Part shown: positions 3,898-53,132 of the stretch, piece after piece
Position numbering within the stretch: position 1 is the first letter of the stretch
How the letters are laid out: each line of letters opens with the position of its first letter
NCBI GenBank assembly: GCA_951406725.2
Contig: OX597828.1
Coordinates: 38,068,001 to 38,132,000, forward strand
From: Octopus vulgaris
Lineage: Eukaryota
Direction: 5' to 3'
Length of the DNA: 64,000 bases
The notes under the pieces: generated by a model
The model's input: only the letters and a program-made list of their open reading frames with translations
Database searches by the model: none
Told to the model about the DNA's origin: nothing
Translations under genes and position numbers: made by a program

Positions 3898-4055
3898 CAT
3901 GCATATATATATATATATATATTGATGGAAATGGTAAGACAACAAAAGAATGAAAGTGACCTCGATATTATGTAAATAGACGAATTTATCTGTAAAAATA
4001 ATATGTGACAATTATTCGGTATCCATGATAAAACTCCAAGTTTATCCGAAGCAAG

Positions 4056-4097
<42 letters not shown>

Positions 4098-4104
<7 letters not shown>

Positions 4105-5178
4105 GAAGCCATGTAGGGACCAAACACGAGACTCAAGAAACGGGAAGGAATCAGTTGCTCTCTGCAGCCTGAAAGATATTTCATCATCCAATGAGCCGGA
4201 ACAGCTGAATGTGCTGCCCAGGTAGACAAACTTTTCCACCACTTTCAGTATTGTTGCTTCAACCAAGATAACTGGTTTCACTTATGGATTTCCTGGTGTA
4301 GGCTGGACCATTACAACAGTCTTGGCCAAGCTAATGCTGAGTCCAAAAGCTTTGCAAGAAGCAGAGATACGATTCATAAGTATTTGCATGTCAACCACTG
4401 TATGAGTGACCAAGTCACAGCCATCTGCATAAAGGATGTCACGAATGAGAGACTGAAAAACTTTTGAATTGGCAGCAAATCGGCGCAGATTAAAAAGGCG
4501 CCAGAAGATCGATACATGACATATATTCTCAGAGAGCTCTTTTACTCCTGTGAGACATGGACGTTTTACAAACGTCATGTAAAGGTCCTTGAACGCTTCC
4601 ATCAGAGATGTCTGGGAAACATTCCGAATGTTGACTGGACCTTAAAAACTACAGACACACAGGTCATGAGGAAAGCCGGTACCTTGAGTATAGAGGCGAT
4701 GGTACACAAGTACCGGTTACGTTGGACTAGACCCCTTATGAGAATGAAGGATAGCAGGATCCCTAAACAGATGCTATATGGAGAACTTGCTAGTGGAAAG
4801 TGACCCCAGTAGAAACCAAGGCTGCGATTTAAGGACTGTGTCAGGTCCTCTTTAACGGCCTGTGATATACAGGAGACCGTCTGAGAGAGCAATGCCTGTC
4901 ATCGCCACAGATGGAGGAAGCAGGTTAAGGAAGGGATCGTCACCATTGAAAGAGCACGTATTCTTCATGAGGAATTTAAGTGTGCTCCTCAAAGGCGCAC
5001 TACTACTGTAGTGAATGAAGAAAGCTTGGTTTGCAATGTTTGCAGTCGTGTATGCTAGACAAGAGCAGGGCTCATTAGCCACCAACGGAGCCGCAAATGC
5101 AAAATATAAGTTAGTCCTAGAGCGCACAATGTTCCTAAAGGTCAGCAATGGTCTTTCTCGGTTACGTGTGGACGGCCA
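4098..5178. mobile_element. RTE-clade LINE fragment with inverted 5' segment
   Basis: Minus 4098-~4510: LFNLRR...LYADG...FGLSISLAKT...FVYLGS...RVW. Plus ~4516-5100: LFYSCETWT...LERFHQRCL...RLRW...RIPKQMLYGEL...CNVCSRVC...GLISH. (TA)n tracts on both sides. Confidence 0.88.
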
Positions 5179-5180
5179 TC

Positions 5181-5231
<51 letters not shown>

Positions 5232-5799
5232 TATGTGTGTGTATGTGTATACACACACACAAACATATATATGTGTACATGTGAGCATATTTCTATGTGT
5301 GTGCATGTACATATGTACGTGCGCAATTAAAAGAGATGTATGGATAAAGAAGTGGTAAACACAGGGATTTATATATATATATAATATATATATACAAAGA
5401 GAAAGAGAGGGAGAGAGAGAGAGTATAGAAGAGTTATATCACATCCATGATTGAACGATTCATTAATTGATCCAACACCCAGTTACAATGCGGTTACCCT
5501 ATTAACTCTAAAATTGGTTTAGATACCGGTTATCCACAACGGTACTCAAGATTAGAAAGAGACGCCGGTCCTGGTATCATCAATCGTTGGATAATTCTGT
5601 GTTCCTATTAAGATTTACACACATTCCGTAGATTATTTAATAACGCTGTTAATGAAGTGACAACTGGAGATTTTATTCACATCCAGAAACCCCTTTATTT
5701 AAAAGTCTTTTTACAGCATCAGCATCTGACCTACGTATATTTCGGCTACAGTAACGCCTCCTCGTTATCCACGTTATATATACATATATGTGACTTGCT

Positions 5800-6530
5800 T
5801 CCTGACACTGAACTTCCTGACACTCAACTTGGCTTCCGTTCGGGAAGAAGCTGTCATACACAGCTTCTGCAGCGTTGTGACTGGGTCGTTCAATCGTGGA
5901 TGCGATATATCTCGATTTTGCAAAGACCCTTGATAAGGTTGATCATATAATGATATGTCACAAGCTACGGAGACTGTGCACGGTCGGAAAACTGGAAGAG
6001 CGATTACCTGACAGAAGTCAGGCTGTAGCGGCCAATGAGGCCCTCTCCACAATAACAGGGACTGGAGTGCTTCGAGGAACTGTGTTGGGGGTGCTGTTGT
6101 TTATGATGGTTCTTTCAGACATGCCATCAGTTCTTTCAGACATGCCATGTCTTTCAGACATGCCAACAGACAGGTACGCTTACTAGCTAAGCCGACAACA
6201 GATAGGTAGTAGGAGCACTCAAGGAAAGCTTTCGATGCTAATCTTCTACGGAAAAACCTACGTGTCATATATAAATGGGTTGAAGAAAAGAACGTAATTT
6301 AATGTAGGAAAAGTCCAATCCCTCCGTTATCAGCTACAGTGCCGCAGCAACGATACTTTGGGCGAAAAGGATTGGCGATCTTAGAGTCAATTACAGTGCG
6401 TAACCTCGGGATTGGTATGAGCGGCAACGCGCTTTTCCACGCACATACCACCGAGATAGTGGCATCCAGGCGAATGGCTGAAAGGAGAACTTAGAGAGTC
6501 AAGTGACCGGGGAACTATGCTGTTTCGTGT
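5800..6530 (+). mobile_element. Degenerate CR1-like LINE reverse transcriptase fragment
   Basis: QLGFRSGRSCHTQLL, DAIYLDFAKTLDKVDH, GVLRGTVLGVLLF (decayed QGSVLGP motif); frameshifts and stops. 3' boundary approximate. Confidence 0.8.
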
Positions 6531-6665
6531 ATGTGTGATTCTTTAAATTTGGAGGTTGGAAGTTTCCATCCACAAAATGAAGTACTAGTCGAATACACAA
6601 CTGGTACTCTCTTTTAACGTTTATTTTATCATAAAACTGCAGGCTTTAGGCCTAAGTTAAAAGCA

Positions 6666-7330
6666 ATTGTTATTCTCATTATTCTATTATTATTTTCTCC
6701 TTATCACAAATTTAGTTGCTTGCTAGCTGCAGCCTGAGATACCATGCTATCCCTTCTTTTCAGCTAATACTTTCCTGATTATTCTGGCTGTGCAAAGGAG
6801 GCAAACCTTTTGGACCAGTTCTACTGGGCACTCTATTTCAGTTCCTTTTATATGCCTCTTGATGCTTTCTGATACTGTTCCCAATGACCCGACAATAAAT
6901 GGGACTATCTTCACCTTCTTCATTTTCCATAGCCAGGCTAATTCGTACTTAAGAGGGTTGTATTTATCTAGCTTTTCGCCTTCCTTCTTGACTATTCATG
7001 GGTCAAAGAGGCATGCGACGTCAAATATATAGCATATGTGGTGCACCTTCTCCACCACCACTAAGTTCGGTCTGTTAAGCTCTAGCAACTGATCTGTTTG
7101 GATTGGGAAATCCCAGAGGATTTTGCTAGTCACCGACTCTGCCACTCTCTGCTGTCTGTTCTCATACCAAGTCTTTCCTCTCTCTAGCCTCCACGTTACG
7201 TACACTTTCGCTGCATGGTCCTGTCGCCACAACTTGTAGTGTTTGAGATTAGGGCATTCGCTTGTGATATGGGCAATGGTTTCATCCACGCTATTGCAGA
7301 TGCGACACAGCGGAGACACTTGCCCATTCT
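6666..7330 (-). mobile_element. 3' end of R4/Dong-like RLE non-LTR retrotransposon
   Basis: CRICNSVDETIAHITSEC zinc knuckle, KILWDFPIQTD...NRPNLVVV...IFDVAC (restriction-like endonuclease), continuing past a stop as KLDKYNPLKYEL...VPFIVGSLG...LCTARIIRKVL; decayed (AAT)n tail near 6666-6695. Confidence 0.85.
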
Positions 7331-23625: not shown

Positions 23626-25169
23626 TAATGTAAGGAATTATTCGTCGAATAATGTTCTCTTGGAAATATTATATCCAGAAAAACGGAAAGGGTTAGCCAT
23701 GACTCGAACACCTGCAGTCGTAAGCAAAGCTTTCGTTAATTCGATAACAAGCAACATTAGTTAACAATACAGAAGTCGATAGCAAAAACCAGTTAACAGT
23801 GATTGAGTCTTAAGTTGACCACATCACCGCAAGTAACGTTGTTATGTTCAGTATTCATAGTTAAAATAATCGTTGTAGCTTAGTTTTATGTCAGCCCTCA
23901 TTGAGCAAACCCTATGATGAAAGGTTCCCGAATGTAATCTAGTTGCCCTTTCTTATATTTGGAGCCACATTCTCCAATATGTCTCTTCTTTTATAAAGTA
24001 ATAAATTATATTTGACGATATTTGCCTGTTATTTCTAGCAGTCCAAAGAGGATCGTGTAATAATGTATCTAGGTATGTTGTAATATTACTTTTTGAAGAT
24101 GCCAGAGAGTAATTTGAGGAAAATTTTGGCTTCTATTGCTAGCAGTTTGTGTAGGCACTGAGATATTCCATCATTAACTTAACGTAATGGAGTCGTTACA
24201 GTTTAACTCCAGATCAGCCTACGATCAAAATTATTCGAGCTATTAACTCCTTCTTTCCCTTGTATGTCATAAACACAGGTATATATAGTCTCATGTGTCT
24301 TTTGCTAAGATAATCTCGTAAGCTAAAGGAATATTTTAGCTGTTATATCTAGCAAATCGAACAACCAGACTGAGATCCCATTGTTGGAATGATGTAATGT
24401 CATCGTTCTGGGTATTCTCATTTAATTTTGTCTTTGATGGTGGAGCGGCAAAAATATTCCGAACTCCTCCAGGCCGGAAGAGCCTTGCCCTTTTCATTCT
24501 GTGGGATCCAACAAAACAAGATACCTTACTTTGAATTTGAACCAGTTGATTGAGTATCAGACAACTTGCTAAAGTGGCGGTCATCGTGATTCTGTCACCA
24601 GAGATAAAACGTGTTCATGACCTATAAACAAAATGGGTGAGTCATTTCTCATTTCAAAAAAGTTCAGATAGCAGAAAACAGAAATTGAGGATGATGCAGT
24701 TTACTTCTGTTGCTGCTGCTGCTGCTGTTGTAGCTGTTGTTGTTGTTGTTGTTGTTGTTGTTGTAGCCGTTGTTGTTGTTGTTCTTGTTGTTCTTGTTCT
24801 TGTTGTTGCTGCTGTTTCTGCCGATGATTATAAGAAATCAGCATTAATCGAACATCTCTACGATCAAAGACACATAACGATTTCAGACCTACACTCGAAT
24901 GCTTTTCACATATATTCACACAATCTTACTCAGAAACAACTCGGGACTCTACAACGCAAAGCGTCCGTTTTTATTTTTCTACGGCAACAGTGTAAGATCT
25001 CTAGAAGACTTTGACCACTATTTCCAGCGACCATGTAGAGCAGTAGTTCTCAACCAGGGTCCAGGTGACCCCTGATGATCCATACAAGTTTTTGGTGGGT
25101 CCACTCATACGAAATAATAAATTGAGGATCTACAAAAGTATTTAACATGTCCGTGAAAAAATGTTGCTT

Positions 25170-39042: not shown

Positions 39043-39567
39043 CCGGGATAGTCAAATCTGGGGAACGTGGAAGTCATTCAAAGTAGACCTCACACATGGT
39101 TCCAGCAAAATGGATCAACTGCTCATACCTCAAGAGGAACAATGTAGTTGCTACGGCAGTGCTTTGGAAAGAGAATACTCTCCAGCTACGGCAATGTCAA
39201 CCGGTCTTCACCTTCCCCAGACTTGACTAGATCGGATTTTTTCTTGTGGGGATACCTGAAAGAGATGGTTTATGTCAATAAACCGGAGACCCTGGAGCAA
39301 CTGAAGGAGAACATCAATAGAGAAGTGGGGTCTGAAACTCTTGAAGGTGTTATGGTGCAAGTTTTGGAAAGAACACAGGCTAGAGAAGCCGAAAATGGTT
39401 GCCATTTAAGCGTTAACATTTTTCACATAGTGGTGGTACAAAATTTGACTTCTGCTTATTAATTTTCATTCTTTCCTTTATATTGTATCAAAATTTCATG
39501 TATTTATTTGCAAAGTTAAGGAAGTTATTAAAATCTAAAACCCATCAGTGACTTTTGGGACACCCTA
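39043..39567 (+). mobile_element. Tc1/mariner-superfamily transposon 3' fragment (DDxD type)
   Basis: WFQQNGSTAHT...SPDLTRSDFFLWGYLKEMVYVNKPETLEQLKENI; ends in TIR-like TTTTGGGACACCCT followed by ATA. Confidence 0.8.
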
Positions 39568-42529: not shown

Positions 42530-43410
42530 TAGTTTCAAATTTTGCCACAAGAACTGCAAAAAGGGAGGAGTGGGTAAAATGATTACCTCAGTGCTCAAGT
42601 GGTACTTATTTTATCGATCCCAAAAGGATGAAAGGCAAAGTCGACCACAGCAGAATTTGAACTCAGAACGTAAGGACGGACGAAACGCTGCTAAGCCCGG
42701 AGTGTTAACGATTCTTTTCTACTCTAGGCACAAGGCCTGAAATTTTGGGGGAGGGGCCAGTCGATTAGATCGACCCCAGTATGCAACTGGTACTTAATTT
42801 ATCGATCCCGAAAAGATGAAAGGCACAGTCGACCTCGGCATAATTTGAGCTCAGAACGTAAAGACATGAAACACCGATAAGCATTTCGCGCGGCGTGCTA
42901 ACGTTTCTTATTTCTTTATTGCCCACAAGGGGCTAAACATAGAGGGGGCAAACAAGGACAGACAAAGGGATTAAGTCGATTACATCGACCCCAGTGCGTA
43001 ACTGGTACTTATTTAATCAACTCCGGAAGGATGATAGGCAAAGTCGACCTCGGCGGAATTTGAACTTAGAACGTAGCGGCAGACGAAATACCGCAAGCGT
43101 AACAGCAGACGAAATACCGCAAGCGTAACAGCAGACGAAATACCTATTTCTTTACTACCCACAAGGGGCTAAACAGAGAGGAGGCAAACAAGGACAGACA
43201 AACGGATTAATCGATTATATCGACCCCAGTGCGTAACTGGTACTTAATTTATCGACCCCGAAAGGATGAAAAGCAAAGTCGGCCTCGGCGGAATTTGAAC
43301 TCAGAACGTAGCGGCAGACGATGGTATCTATTTAATCGACCCCGAAAGGATGAAAAGCAAAGTCGACCTCGGCGGAATTTGAACTTGGGACGTAAAGACA
43401 GACGAAATTT
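42530..43410 (-). mobile_element. SINE family B multimer left of the viral insert
   Basis: Five core units with the same linkers as 34425-35000. Confidence 0.85.
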
Positions 43411-43803
43411 TATCTTCTCTATCATTCCTGAATTGTTGATCACAAATAAATTGCAGAATTCATAGAATGGAAGAAGAGAAACTATTACAGACGTAAACGA
43501 ATTCAGTGGTCTCCAAAGGGAATTGAATCAGAATCGTTATCCCTTCGCTATGAAACATTGCTTTCACAATTACAGATTATACTCTGGGATGTTCCAACTC
43601 ACTGTTCGGAACCATTACAAGGATAATCTAGTTTCAAACTACATCGTTTCATTTAAGCCACAAAAGCTTTCTGGATGACATGAAAGCAACACATTGTTAT
43701 CTCCCTTTAGTCTTGAAACACATGAGCTTTATATCTACGTAAGCATCTATTTAATTTGTTTATTAATGGATATATGGGCTCTACAGTTACTGATAACATG
43801 CTC

Positions 43804-43967
43804 GACTGCTACTGAAACTAGGTTAATCTGACGTGTATATATATTATCGTGGCGGCCGATCTAATAATTGCTGGACGCCTGTTAGTATTACCAGGCGTCC
43901 CCGGATGCCGGCCGCCGGAATTTTTTAGTTATATAATCTTCCCTCTGCTAAGAATTCCGTCATCTGA
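43804..43967 (+). repeat. Left copy of viral intergenic region (164 bp direct repeat)
   Basis: GACTGCTACTGAAACTAGG...GTCATCTGA matches 45948-46122 with about 6 substitutions and one 11-bp indel (manual alignment). Confidence 0.97.
43873..43900 (+). promoter_or_regulatory. Rolling-circle origin stem-loop 1 (nonanucleotide TAGTATTAC)
   Basis: Perfect 9-bp stem GGACGCCTG/CAGGCGTCC around loop TTAGTATTAC; nonanucleotide at 43883-43891. Confidence 0.95.
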
Positions 43968-43971
43968 CAAG

Positions 43972-45103
43972 ATGCCTCACACTCCTATGTATCGACGCTT
44001 CTGTTTTACTTTGAATAATTACACAGACGAAGAATTAGCCGTGCTCATATAGATACATAGGATCTGAAAAGGATAACTTCCAGTATTGTTCGAAGGAAGG
44101 GAATGTAGTTATCGAGTGTGGTGAAAGGAATTTGTCGTCTAAAGAGAAGAAGTCTAAAGTTTCTGATAACATTCGTAATATCGTATGGAATTCTACTAGT
44201 AACCCGGAGGAGTATGTTTTAACCCACGACGACTCCGATCTAATAAATGCCTATCGTAATAATGTTCGAGCAGTAGGTGATTTGTTTGTAGAATCCAAGA
44301 AGAAGCGTACTTTCGATTTAATTGTGATGGAATATGAGAACGTAGTTTGGCAGCGATGGCAGTTTCGTCTTATACAGGAGCTGAAAAAGAAGCCGGACCC
44401 TCGGAAAATAATTTGGTATTGCGATCCAGTCGGTAATTCTGGTAAAGCCTACTTGTCCCGTTATTTGCAAACTATTGACGGTATACGTTTTGAGAATGGC
44501 CGTTCTGTAGATATCAAGTACAAGTATGACGGCCGGCGTATAGTTGTATTCGATTATACGCGTTCTCAAAAGGATCACATTAACTATGACGTAATCGAAA
44601 GTATCAAGAACGGATTAATATGTTCCACCAAGTATGTGCCTGTGACCAAGACTTTTCCTATACCGCACGTTGTCGTTTTCGCTAATTTTGAACCTGACCG
44701 TTCTAAGATGTCTGCTGACCGCTGGGACATTCGTTTTCTCACTACAGAAGACTATCAAAAGATATATGAAAATATTGACAATGAGTTCGTGATCGCAACT
44801 ACCCAACCAACACTTGCCCCCGCCCCAACCCCTGCAGATCATACGCCGTCCTTTACAGCAAGTGAGAAAGAACTGATCGACCAGCTCGACCGCAGTGAAT
44901 GCGAACTGTTTGCAGAAAGTGGATGGGCTGCTATCGGAGAATCTACTCCGAAAAATGATTCGCTAGATGCAATTCATTCACCGTTTAATATCTTCTCGTA
45001 TAACACAACAACAATTTGCAAGTGTAAGCAGTACGAGACTGAAAATAAATACCTGAAGCAACGCATCTTGGAATTGAAAGAAGAACTCAAACGAAAAATG
45101 TAA
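43972..45103 (+). pseudogene. rep: CRESS-virus replication initiator protein (HUH endonuclease + SF3 helicase), disrupted at the N-terminus
   Basis: ATG 43972 gives MPHTPMYRRFCFTLNN (motif I at 44005-44019) then TAG at 44050-44052. RAHID is read from 44040 in another frame. A third frame gives GSEKDNFQYCSKEG (motif III YCSK 44084-44095) and stays open to TAA at 45101-45103, with Walker A GNSGKA (44432-44449), Walker B IVVFDY (44540-44557), motif C VVVFAN (44669-44686) and SADRW. Motif II is absent. Confidence 0.93.
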
Positions 45104-45115
45104 AATTGAGAAGAA

Positions 45116-45154
45116 AATAAAATTTATTGAACTGAAGTACAGTGTTTGTTTATT
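45116..45154. terminator. Bidirectional polyadenylation region between rep and cap
   Basis: AATAAA(+) 45116-45121 back-to-back with TTTATT 45123-45128 (AATAAA on -); second minus-strand AATAAA at 45149-45154 overlapping the cap stop; GT-rich tract at 45141-45150. Confidence 0.7.
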
Positions 45155-45947
45155 ATTCTGCCTCAGCCAGGTATTGTTCACCGTTTCTTCTTCCTGTTAG
45201 TTTTATTGTTATCCAAGTTTTAACCAGTATGATCTCTTCCAGTTCGGCCTGTAGTGTGCACGCTACTCCGTTGTAGCTGTTCTTTGACCAAGCCTTATCC
45301 TTCACAGAACCCCACGGTGCCTGTGCTATGTCGTATGTTTGACTTCATTTCAGAAATAACTTCGGATACGGGTTCTTATCGAATTCATCGTGGCTTACAT
45401 CATGTGTTTGCCACGACCATTTTGGTTCGTAACTTATTGCCACTCTTCTTTCCGTTTTTAAATGTCTCATCCTGCAGTTATTCATTTTAATCATCTCTTT
45501 GTATTCGATATGTCTTCCTTGTAGGTCCCTGTCGTAGGCCCAGTATATTCGGGGTATCATTTCACCGTGTTTGATTATTGTAGGTAATTCGAATGTAGAT
45601 CCGAATCTAATAACTTCGAAGCAGACCCACGTATGTTTAAGTATGTCTCCTTCTGTTGGTTTAACTAGTTTTATCAGTTTCTGCCAGTTGCATGTTAGCG
45701 AGAATTGTGTTTCGCTTTTAATAATTTTCACAGGTTCCTCCATCCAATAGGTTTTGTATAGGTAATTTGGAGACCTGTGTTCTCTCGGTTTCTTTCTCCA
45801 AAGGAAGCGCCTTTTTTTTAATAATCTTTTGGCTTTAATGTATCTCATAGTTGAGAATGGTATTAATTTCCATTGTCTTTTCGACCTCCACCTCCTTCTA
45901 TGAGGCCGTCGTCTTGTACCATACGCCCACACTGATCTTATCGGCAT
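45153..45947 (-). pseudogene. cap: CRESS-virus capsid protein, 264 codons with one in-frame TGA at codon 201
   Basis: Arg/Lys-rich N-terminus (RRRPHRRRWRSKR...KKRRFLWRKK); ambisense to rep; ATG abuts the intergenic region. Manual translation past the TGA (45345-45347) gives 63 more codons (SQTYDIAQAPWGSVKDKAWSKNSYNGVACTLQAELEEIILVKTWITIKLTGRRNGEQYLAEAE) to a TAA at 45153-45155 overlapping AATAAA. Confidence 0.85.
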
Positions 45948-46122
45948 GACTGCTACTGAAACTAGGTTAATCTGACGTGTATATATATTATCTTGGCGGC
46001 CAATCTAATAATTGCTGGACGCCTGCTAGTATTACCAGACGTCCCCGGATGCCGGCCGCCGGAAGTGACGTTTCTGTTTTTAGTAATATAATCTTCCCTC
46101 TGCTAAGAATTCTGTCATCTGA
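45948..46122 (+). repeat. Right copy of viral intergenic region (175 bp direct repeat)
   Basis: Starts immediately after the cap start codon (CAT 45945-45947); matches 43804-43967. Confidence 0.97.
46017..46044 (+). promoter_or_regulatory. Rolling-circle origin stem-loop 2 (nonanucleotide TAGTATTAC)
   Basis: GGACGCCTG-CTAGTATTAC-CAGACGTCC; one stem mismatch at 46039; nonanucleotide at 46027-46035. Confidence 0.93.
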
Positions 46123-46279
46123 AGACTTTATCGAATAGACGTAGAAAATGCTACTACTCGGTCAAACGACGTGGTGTTTCAGACACACCATGCTTCCACC
46201 TATGTAAGGAACATACTACAAATACTGACATGCAATGCTTTATCATATGAATTACAGCATGACGACGGTCTGTATATAT

Positions 46280-51949: not shown

Positions 51950-53132
51950 CAGGGGTTGGACAAAATAATGGAAACACCTTAAAATCTCAAACAAATTCAT
52001 TTTAATATTGGGTAGGACAGCCTTTGGCGAAAATTACACCTTGAATTCTACGAGGTATGGGCTCGTACAAAGTTTAAATTATTTCCAAAGGAATTTTTGT
52101 CCATTCTTCAGCTAAAACAGTCTCCAGTTCTTGTAATGATGATGGTGGAAGATATCAACTGTGGTGGCCAGATAAGATGTTCAACTTCGCTAGAATGTTC
52201 CTCGTGCCATTCAATAACAACTTTAGCGGTGTGCATTGGTTCATTATCATCCTGAAAGATTGCGTTTCCCTCTGGAAACAGTTCCGCAACCATACGATAA
52301 ATTTGATCAAATAAATTGCTTAAATAGTCTTGACGATTAACTCTGCCATGAAGGGAAACCATTGGGCCAGCGGATTTCCAAAGTTGTAGCCCTCCCGCCC
52401 AAGATCATCACAGATCTTCCTCCATGTTTAACAGTTGGAAGAAGGCAATCTAGGTCAAATGCTTCGTTTGGCTGTCTCGGCTGGTGGTCAGAAATAAGAT
52501 AAAAGATGACTCGTCCGAGAAAATAACATTCTTCCACTGCTCTAGGGACCAATTCCGTAGGTTTTTACGCTACTCTAAACGCTTTGCAACGTTTGTTTTT
52601 GAAAGTAGTGCTTTTCTGATTGCAGCCTTCCCATGAAATCCGGTTTTGTGAAGCTCCCGGCGAACAGTCTCTGTGGAAACTGGGTTCTCGAGGTAGTCAC
52701 TAAGCTCTGTACTAATTTTGGGAGCTGTATTTTTGTGATCCTTTCTAACAATTCGCGTAAGAGTCCGACGGTTCCTTTCTGAAAGTTTTGGTTTTCTTCC
52801 GGAGTTTTTTCCCTCTCTCTCAAAGGCTCACTTTCAAGACAGTTCTTCTTGATACACCTAACATTTCGGCTGTTTTCGTTACGCTAGCGCCCGCCATACA
52901 AGCACCAACAATTTGACTTCTTTAAAAGTCCAATGAATCTGTCATTTTAATGAATTTAATAACCTTTTTCTGATGATATCTGTAAAGAAATAACAACTTT
53001 AGCAAACCATATTAAGTAACACTAATAATAAATCAAAAAACATAAAAATAACCAAGCTTTTGATGGTTTTATCGATATCTCAAAATTATGATGCTATGAA
53101 GCTAGGTGTTTCCATTATTTTGTCCAACCCCT
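51950..53132 (-). mobile_element. Tc1-like DNA transposon, both TIRs present, transposase degraded
   Basis: 29-bp TIR AGGGGTTGGACAAAATAATGGAAACACCT at 51951-51979 and its reverse complement at 53104-53132, TA at both flanks. Minus-strand peptides WKNVIFSDESSF, PTVKHGGRSVMI, IFQDDNEPMHTAK, LIWPPQ occur in shifted frames. Confidence 0.92.

What the first reader, a model, noticed from the sequence alone, without database searches (positions are those of the whole stretch)
43804..46122. Genome-length endogenous CRESS ssDNA virus in a probable octopus chromosome
Seen: rep (+), cap (-), two nonanucleotide stem-loop origins and convergent polyA signals, all inside SINE/microsatellite host DNA. Established: ambisense rep/cap with TAGTATTAC on the rep-sense strand is the circovirus-like CRESS layout, and most CRESS endogenous elements are rep-only fragments. 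Inference: this is a germline-integrated, reconstructable genome of a CRESS lineage that infects cephalopods, which would assign a host to a group known mostly from marine metagenomes.
Basis: partly seen in the sequence, partly recalled or inferred. Interest (0 to 1): 0.92.

Follow-up and report, generated by a model that had tools for sequence, protein, structure and literature searches.

The report
Broken whole-virus fossil in octopus genome
A small circular DNA virus became part of an octopus chromosome a few million years ago and has since decayed; with about a dozen related fragments elsewhere in the genome, it points to octopuses as real hosts of a virus group known until now only from environmental and whole-animal samples.

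Summary
Real, but a decayed fossil, not an intact genome. Window 43804-46122 is about 1.08 genome lengths of a CRESS DNA virus: one rep-cap unit between two copies of the whole intergenic region, each with a TAGTATTAC hairpin. Contigs of three DNA runs labelled as three organisms cross the junctions, at flank-like depth. One run is 2.3% diverged and holds the same insertion, so this is a germline insertion older than that split (probably at least 2.5 My). Both genes are broken. Rep lacks about 50 codons including motif II, is frameshifted and has an atypical Walker A; cap has an internal stop. Rep differences look neutral (14 N, 5 S). The minus ORF is a capsid, by profile match and by the jelly-roll fold of a paralogue. 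The nearest named viruses are five Anicreviridae, not circoviruses. The origin lies on the Rep strand, opposite to 16 of 16 nearest relatives. Twelve more related fragments lie in the genome, and Octopus bimaculoides has one. Whole-genome CRESS fossils are a known kind; my ten literature searches found none for cephalopods and no host evidence for Anicreviridae. New member of a known kind, interest 0.55.

The parts
43804..43967 (+). left copy of the viral intergenic region (terminal direct repeat 1)
   Evidence: 164 aligned bases, 6 substitutions and an 11-base indel against copy 2; begins next to the position of the cap start codon
43873..43900 (+). origin hairpin, perfect 9-bp stem, loop nonanucleotide TAGTATTAC at 43883 on the Rep-sense strand
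43972..44052 (+). 5' piece of rep: start codon and RCR motif I (FTLNN), 26 codons, then out of frame at the deletion
   Evidence: Rep profile hit E 2.6e-4 at profile positions 6-25
44051..45103 (+). 3' piece of rep: motif III (YCSK), SF3 helicase (Walker A GNSGKA, Walker B, motif C) and a tail of about 120 aa; motif II absent
   Evidence: (E 1e-89)
45116..45154 (.). convergent polyadenylation-like signals (AATAAA on + at 45116; on - at 45123 and 45149)
   Evidence: function not shown
45153..45947 (-). capsid gene, Arg-rich N terminus, broken by an in-frame stop at codon 201 (45345-45347)
   Evidence: both stop-to-stop pieces hit a profile of 15 relatives' capsids (E 5.8e-5 and 1.3e-4 among 1228 pieces); 36% identical to the C11 capsid copy
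45948..46122 (+). right copy of the intergenic region (terminal direct repeat 2), hairpin 46017-46044 with nonanucleotide at 46027; ends 4 bases before the position of the rep start codon
43410..43803 (.). left host flank, single match in the genome, no viral similarity found
46123..46275 (.). right host flank, single match in the genome, no viral similarity found; a high-copy repeat follows

Best explanation
An endogenous viral element. An Anicreviridae-related CRESS DNA virus that infected octopuses reached a germline cell. A longer-than-unit double-stranded replication intermediate (intergenic region, rep, cap, intergenic region) was joined into the chromosome without target-site duplication, most likely by end-joining repair. 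The insertion was inherited by at least two present-day species, lost its Rep nuclease core before they split, and has since drifted neutrally, with cap breaking separately in each lineage. It cannot replicate itself. Shown: structure, integration, orthology, breaks, near-neutral divergence of rep, nearest relatives. Inferred: the end-joining route, the age in years, and that the octopus itself was the host.
For. Left junction: crossed by contigs of X4 (45 bases inside) and X8 (78 bases); X2 reaches only 30 bases, one short of the tool's 31-base rule. Right junction: crossed in X2, X4 and X8. Depth in the element is like that of the flanks (X2 20 vs 22/20; X8 54 vs 44/55; X4 7.9 vs 5.5/4.6), with about double depth in one repeat bin each of X2 and X8. 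X8 (organism C) differs at 49 of 2138 element bases (2.3%) and 11 of 404 left-flank bases (2.7%), shares the rep deletion, and has its own cap frameshift behind 45811. Rep differences: 14 nonsynonymous, 5 synonymous, pN/pS 0.74-1.04, binomial p at least 0.57. Walker A ends in A, against S or T in 140 of 147 rows. No target-site duplication. Twelve further related loci in the genome and a homologue in O. bimaculoides. Six octopus-type rows form one clade (SH-aLRT 95 and 99) inside a 36-row group (support 86) with five named Anicreviridae of five genera. A paralogous capsid folds (pLDDT 78) as a jelly roll whose best PDB match is bat circovirus capsid.
Against: No single contig spans the whole element, because all break inside the terminal repeats, and X2 may be the source sample. 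No empty site was seen, so the original junctions and any loss of target DNA are unknown. Both host junctions fall within about 5 bases of the start codons, which random end-joining does not predict (crude chance about 0.001, computed after the fact). Nineteen differences give little power to exclude mild selection, and the table of differences was cut (40 of 78 rows shown), so cap could not be tested. Both trees are quick trees of the helicase part only, without bootstrap or named outgroup families.
Confidence: 0.88

Rival explanations
1. The insertion is real and has been co-opted: it is transcribed from both strands, and the RNA (as a source of small RNAs) or the helicase-only reading frame does something for the octopus, such as antiviral defence.
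For:: run X5, guessed to be RNA, has contigs 43903-45086, 45144-45294 and 45283-45857 identical to the broken endogenous copy, a break around the polyA signals, and no cover over 43400-43889. The 323-codon helicase frame is open in organisms A and C (no stop among 19 differences). A related helicase frame is 88% identical (228 of 258) between the C11 copy and O. bimaculoides.
Against: X5's RNA status is a guess, contigs show no strand or level, and only 1 of the RNA-guess runs was laid. pN/pS is near 1 and Walker A is atypical. The database gene model P0001 depends on a 6-codon first exon 19.6 kb upstream, at 24617. Orthology of the C11 and O. bimaculoides copies was not tested.
Confidence: 0.12
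2. Assembly artefact or episome: a contaminating or persistent circular virus joined to host DNA through the repeated intergenic region.
For: Short-read contigs break in the repeats. The left contigs of X2 and X4 end before the first site that tells the two repeats apart, so their graphs alone also fit a solo repeat plus a circle.
Against: Depth follows the flanks in three runs. The same rep deletion is present in organisms A, B and C. The element diverges at the rate of its host flank. X8's left contig runs 78 bases into the repeat with only one difference not accounted for by the host part. A genome without Rep motif II could not keep itself going as a circle (established role of the HUH motif, recalled).
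Confidence: 0.02
3. The donor virus infected a parasite, symbiont or prey of the octopus and its DNA entered the germline by accident, so the element does not name the host.
For: Related viruses come from whole invertebrates and water (PMC4498126, passages), and no free virus of this exact clade was tied to an octopus here.
Against: At least 12 separate loci of several divergent variants in one genome, one clade shared with O. bimaculoides, and capsid homologues found only in this genome and in three database proteins of unknown true origin. Repeated germline entry is the usual sign of a true host (reasoning as in PMC10193959, passages).
Confidence: 0.08

Closest known systems
Anicreviridae (Mulpavirales): dragonfly larvae associated circular virus-10 (Manawavirus), Palaemonetes grass shrimp virus (Otevirus), Littorina snail virus (Rakkovirus by its NCBI protein record), Lake Sarah virus-11 (Patavirus), Cyanoramphus nest X virus (Kopavirus)
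   Same: Rep 43% identical over 65% of the query to DfLaCV-10; same tree group; ambisense genome of about 2.2-2.3 kb; NAGTATTAC hairpin; the octopus capsid profile hits 5 of the 16 nearest relatives' capsids and no other ORF of 84 loci, best Otevirus (E 6e-11).
   Different: Nonanucleotide on the Rep strand (Type I) here, on the Cap strand in 16 of 16 nearest relatives (Type II for the Littorina and Palaemonetes viruses in PMC4498126). Octopus-clade Rep tail with CxC and a coiled-coil-like end. Integrated and broken.
Whole-genome krikovirus (Draupnirviridae) endogenous elements in reptiles and insects (PMC10193959)
   Same: Paired rep and cap fossils with stops, shared between species, used to assign and date a host.
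   Different: Other virus family and host phylum; those reach back 114 My, this one a few My; terminal duplication of the whole intergenic region is not mentioned in the passages read.
CRESS-derived elements in molluscs (PMC6069186: Modiolus, Mytilus, Biomphalaria, Conus)
   Same: CRESS Rep fossils in Mollusca.
   Different: All new elements of that study were rep-only; octopus is absent from its main text although O. bimaculoides was screened (supplement file 4 could not be searched).
Circovirus versus Cyclovirus (Circoviridae)
   Same: Type I layout as in Circovirus (PMC4498126); capsid fold like bat circovirus. The two genera are a precedent for a polarity flip among close relatives (recalled).
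   Different: The nearest named Reps are anicreviruses; the only row named Circoviridae among 120 is 31% identical.

Membership tests
Endogenous viral element | virus-derived DNA joined to host chromosome DNA | tested here: met
   junction-crossing contigs and flank-like depth in X2, X4, X8; no contig spans the whole
Endogenous viral element | inherited: same insertion in another lineage | tested here: met
   organism C, 2.3% diverged, same flanks
Endogenous viral element | empty site in an outgroup | not testable with these tools
   no related genome is held; none of the 4 runs laid showed a joint
Cressdnaviricota | Rep with HUH endonuclease motifs I-III and SF3 helicase | tested here: met
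   as a fossil: motifs I and III and the helicase are present, motif II is deleted. Pfam alone found neither domain in the window's pieces
Cressdnaviricota | single jelly-roll capsid | tested here: met
   profile hits on both window pieces; fold shown on the C12 paralogue, not on the window's own ORF; the alignment included relatives' capsids, so the model leans towards them
Cressdnaviricota | hairpin origin with nonanucleotide | tested here: met
Anicreviridae | Rep groups with the family in phylogeny (families of the phylum are drawn on Rep trees; recalled) | tested here: inconclusive
   lies in a 36-row group with all five named members, support 86, quick helicase-only tree, no named outgroup family. 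I call it Anicreviridae-related and do not file it as a member
Anicreviridae | layout seen in members: nonanucleotide on the Cap strand (observed here; whether ICTV treats it as defining was not seen) | tested here: not met
   16 of 16 nearest relatives Cap-strand, window Rep-strand; the C12 octopus copy appears Cap-strand
Circoviridae | Rep groups with Circovirus or Cyclovirus | tested here: inconclusive
   no named circovirus Rep was in the trees; the nearest named hits are anicreviruses
Helitron or plasmid Rep | Rep homology to Helitron or plasmid Reps, no capsid | tested here: not met
   Pfam labels among the 120 listed hits are Viral_Rep PF02407, PF00910 and PF00799 only; a capsid is present

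The most novel reading that the evidence does not exclude
Octopods have been hosts of their own anicrevirus clade for tens of millions of years and have put it to use. The window's copy is read from both strands as convergent RNA (a source of antiviral small RNA), the helicase-only Rep shared at 88% between the C11 copy and O. bimaculoides is a domesticated gene at least 34 My old, and the window records a virus that inverted its whole intergenic region relative to its genes, a circovirus/cyclovirus-type polarity flip inside one clade.
Probability: 0.12. Interest if true: 0.8.

Novelty: new member of a known kind. Interest (0 to 1): 0.55.

Why it matters
Anicreviridae are listed only by the kind of sample they came from (PMC11945456, table passage). 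A dated germline fossil with rep, cap and origin, together with 12 further fragments, gives this group a named animal host and a minimum age. It also gives cephalopod virology and octopus farming a DNA virus lineage to look for, with diagnostic capsid and Rep sequences. The opposite origin polarity in two copies of one clade bears on how CRESS layouts switch. The method and the class of object are established, and the copy is dead, which caps the interest.

Tried and rejected
Pfam found nothing real in the window's four pieces. The capsid read through with X found 0 homologues among 133 candidates and only chance PDB sequence hits. The Atlas look-alike search of the capsid was not obtained. 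Locus scans with the single Rep and with the octopus capsid alignment found no relatives in viral contigs. A first fold from a 6-row alignment failed (pLDDT 31) and was not used. A capsid profile against PDB sequences gave only weak hits, led by ribosomal uL23. The idea that the flanks are decayed rep or cap starts was tested against 84 viral loci and three profiles: best E 0.028, rejected. No target-site duplication. The careful trees did not finish; both are quick trees. The second tree kept 50 of 147 rows and left out the long-branch C1 and C17 copies, which fall outside the octopus clade; two weak copies (C15 at 76.3 Mb, C1 at 162 Mb) were never put in a tree. Three look-ups of earlier findings returned nothing. 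Literature: (octopus or cephalopod with endogenous-virus terms) and one search returned 0 papers; one search returned 1 (millipedes, listing only); (Anicreviridae) returned 2; supplied background. Subscription papers and ICTV proposals are outside the library.

Full report
WHERE IT LIES. The window is G000:C15:38068001-38132000, in a 2.8-Gb genome of 227 contigs. The best database hit of the Rep frame is a predicted Octopus vulgaris protein, identical apart from its first residues (P0001).

ANATOMY. The element (2319 bases, GC 0.41) is one 2144-base unit plus a second copy of the intergenic region, about 1.08 genome lengths. The two copies (43804-43967 and 45948-46122) differ by 6 substitutions in 164 aligned bases and an 11-base indel. 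Each holds a hairpin with TAGTATTAC; the left stem is perfect, the right has a mismatch. The left end lies next to the position of the cap start codon, the right end 4 bases before that of rep, and there is no target-site duplication. The flanks of 394 and 153 bases match only themselves in the genome and show no viral similarity.

BOTH GENES ARE BROKEN. Rep starts at 43972 with motif I and goes out of frame after 26 codons. The two motifs lie 79 bases apart, against 75-82 codons in 16 relatives (both motifs found in 16 of 20), so about 150 bases, including motif II, are gone. Walker A reads GNSGKA; of 147 helicase rows 140 have S or T there, 1 has I, 5 gave no match, and only the window has A. 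Cap has an in-frame stop at codon 201 of 264.

THE MINUS ORF IS A CAPSID. Direct searches failed. A profile of capsids from 15 of the 16 nearest Rep relatives, built without any octopus sequence, hit both window pieces (E 5.8e-5 and 1.3e-4) and the C11 copy (E 5e-11) among 1228 pieces. In reverse, the octopus capsid profile hit 5 of those 16 capsids and nothing else in 84 loci. The C12 paralogue folded at pLDDT 78. Its best PDB match is bat circovirus capsid (6rpk, E 1.4e-5, TM 0.57) and its best BFVD match the Palaemonetes virus capsid (TM 0.77). That capsid was in the alignment, so this last match is not independent. The window's own capsid was not folded.

INTEGRATION IS REAL AND SHARED. 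Twenty of 24 listed runs hold part of the stretch, in 8 studies; I laid 4. The right junction is crossed in X2, X4 and X8. The left is crossed in X4 and X8, and by only 30 bases in X2, which may be the source sample. Depth is flat across flank and element. No contig spans the whole, because all break in the repeats, and no joint or empty site was seen. X8, labelled organism C, differs at 49 of 2138 element bases (2.3%) and 11 of 404 left-flank bases (2.7%). It has the same rep deletion and a cap frameshift of its own behind 45811; the cap breaks of A and C are not the same. The rep deletion thus predates the split, and cap decayed afterwards. The 19 listed rep differences are 14 nonsynonymous and 5 synonymous (pN/pS 0.74-1.04), as expected under drift, although the power is low.

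AGE (inference). The two repeats differ by 3.7% (95% interval 1.4-7.8%), not distinguishable from 2.3% (Fisher p 0.28). If organism C is O. sinensis, which I did not establish, the split is 2.5 My (PMC10700109, passages). My arithmetic then gives at least 2.5 My from orthology and about 4 My (1.5-8.5) from the repeats.

RELATIVES. Rep relatives are mostly unnamed 2-3 kb contigs. The named ones among the nearest are DfLaCV-10, the Littorina and Palaemonetes viruses, Lake Sarah virus-11 and the Cyanoramphus nest X virus, of the Anicreviridae genera Manawavirus, Rakkovirus, Otevirus, Patavirus and Kopavirus. The taxonomy copy still lists the Littorina virus name under unclassified Circoviridae. 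Six rows (window, C3, C30, C11, O. bimaculoides and a Logan protein of unknown origin) form one clade (SH-aLRT 95 in 147 rows, 99 in 50 rows) within a group holding all five (support 86). These are quick, helicase-only trees. I call the element Anicreviridae-related and do not file it as a member.

ORIGIN POLARITY. The nonanucleotide lies on the Rep strand here but on the Cap strand in 16 of the 16 nearest relatives; over all 84 loci the count is 39 Rep-strand, 26 Cap-strand and 19 without a call. The C12 copy has an intergenic region collinear with the window's (p about 0.001). On the side where the window has its cap start, C12 has a start whose upstream sequence resembles that of the C14 rep piece (p 0.002). 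C12 therefore seems to have the relatives' polarity, and the window's intergenic region is inverted relative to its genes. C12 is itself rearranged, so this is likely, not certain. Both terminal copies share the orientation, so the flip most simply happened in the free virus. An inversion of the gene cassette after integration, which might also explain why every boundary sits at a start codon, is not excluded and remains unexplained.

A FAMILY OF FOSSILS. Searches of G000 gave 8 helicase loci including the window (9 matches), 4 further capsid loci and 1 nuclease piece: 12 besides the window, a lower bound. The two on C31 are 95% identical duplicates, and the four weakest may come from other lineages. 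Among the copies examined, only the window carries rep, cap and origin in genome order. The C11 helicase frame is 88% identical to O. bimaculoides LOC106882589, across a split of about 34 My (PMC10700109); orthology is untested.

EXPRESSION. Run X5, guessed to be RNA, has contigs over rep and cap identical to the broken copy, with a gap at the polyA signals and none on the left flank. This is a weak hint: one run, status guessed, no strand. The gene model P0001 relies on a 6-codon exon 19.6 kb upstream and is not evidence of a gene.

MECHANISM. Shown: a longer-than-unit viral genome in the germline, shared, broken and drifting. Inferred from established CRESS biology (recalled): rolling-circle replication yields double-stranded and longer-than-unit forms that can be captured at chromosome breaks, and without motif II Rep cannot nick, so the copy is inert. 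Confidence 0.88. The rivals are co-option (0.12, compatible with integration), a non-octopus host (0.08) and artefact (0.02).

AGAINST WHAT IS KNOWN. Whole-genome CRESS fossils used to assign hosts are described for krikoviruses (PMC10193959, passages), and rep-only CRESS fossils for bivalves and gastropods (PMC6069186, passages and 4 supplement files; file 4 was unavailable and may list elements). I also read passages of PMC4498126, PMC11945456 and PMC9615429 (its supplement had no hit for octopus). Searches found no report of such elements in cephalopods, and one search found two papers naming Anicreviridae (one passage read, one listing only), with no host evidence from genomes seen in either. 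Verdict: new member of a known kind, with a real host assignment and an odd origin polarity; interest 0.55.

Noticed in passing
L012:3219-4778 (G000:C11, about 25.61 Mb): Second convergent rep+cap fossil, cut at both 5' ends, with open frames, set among duplicated fragments of a rhodopsin-family receptor gene (PF00001). Its helicase frame is 88% identical to O. bimaculoides LOC106882589: a candidate domesticated gene or a separate insertion.
   Followed up: partly
L103:1150-2073 (G000:C12, about 6.09 Mb): Capsid core, origin hairpin and a rep reduced to its first and last codons, apparently inside a small DNA-transposon-like element (read by eye); origin polarity opposite to the window's.
   Followed up: partly
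L108:1137-1788 (G000:C14, about 64.34 Mb): A Viral_Rep nuclease fragment next to and apparently inside a remnant of an ISXO2/Merlin-like transposase (PF12762, E 6e-4, below cut-off).
   Followed up: partly
L104 and L105 (G000:C31, 6.46 and 3.48 Mb): Two near-identical long open capsid frames (254 and 248 codons); no rep in the 9.9 kb around the first.
   Followed up: partly
P0277 (WP_400166885.1): A protein filed under Erwinia amylovora on a 2467-base contig is 82% identical to the octopus C11 capsid: probably a contaminant, either octopus DNA or a free virus of this clade.
   Followed up: no
P0278, P0280-P0282, P0279, P0004, P0151 (Logan contigs of 1-2.7 kb): Close relatives of the octopus capsid and Rep in public runs of unknown origin; they may be living viruses or fossils in other octopods.
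   Followed up: no
P0009, P0015, P0022, P0136, P0142 (ENA contigs of 0.2-5.4 Mb): Related Reps on long contigs, possibly endogenous copies in other eukaryotes.
   Followed up: no
window 46131-46268: An X5 contig matches this part of the right flank on the minus strand and continues in sequence not matching the stretch laid; an AG lies at the edge, so it may be a spliced host exon pointing into the element.
   Followed up: no
window 52078-52883, 39148-39459 and 4045-7328: Decayed Tc1/mariner-like transposase frames and LINE reverse-transcriptase-like remnants (read by eye; labels recalled, not tested).
   Followed up: no
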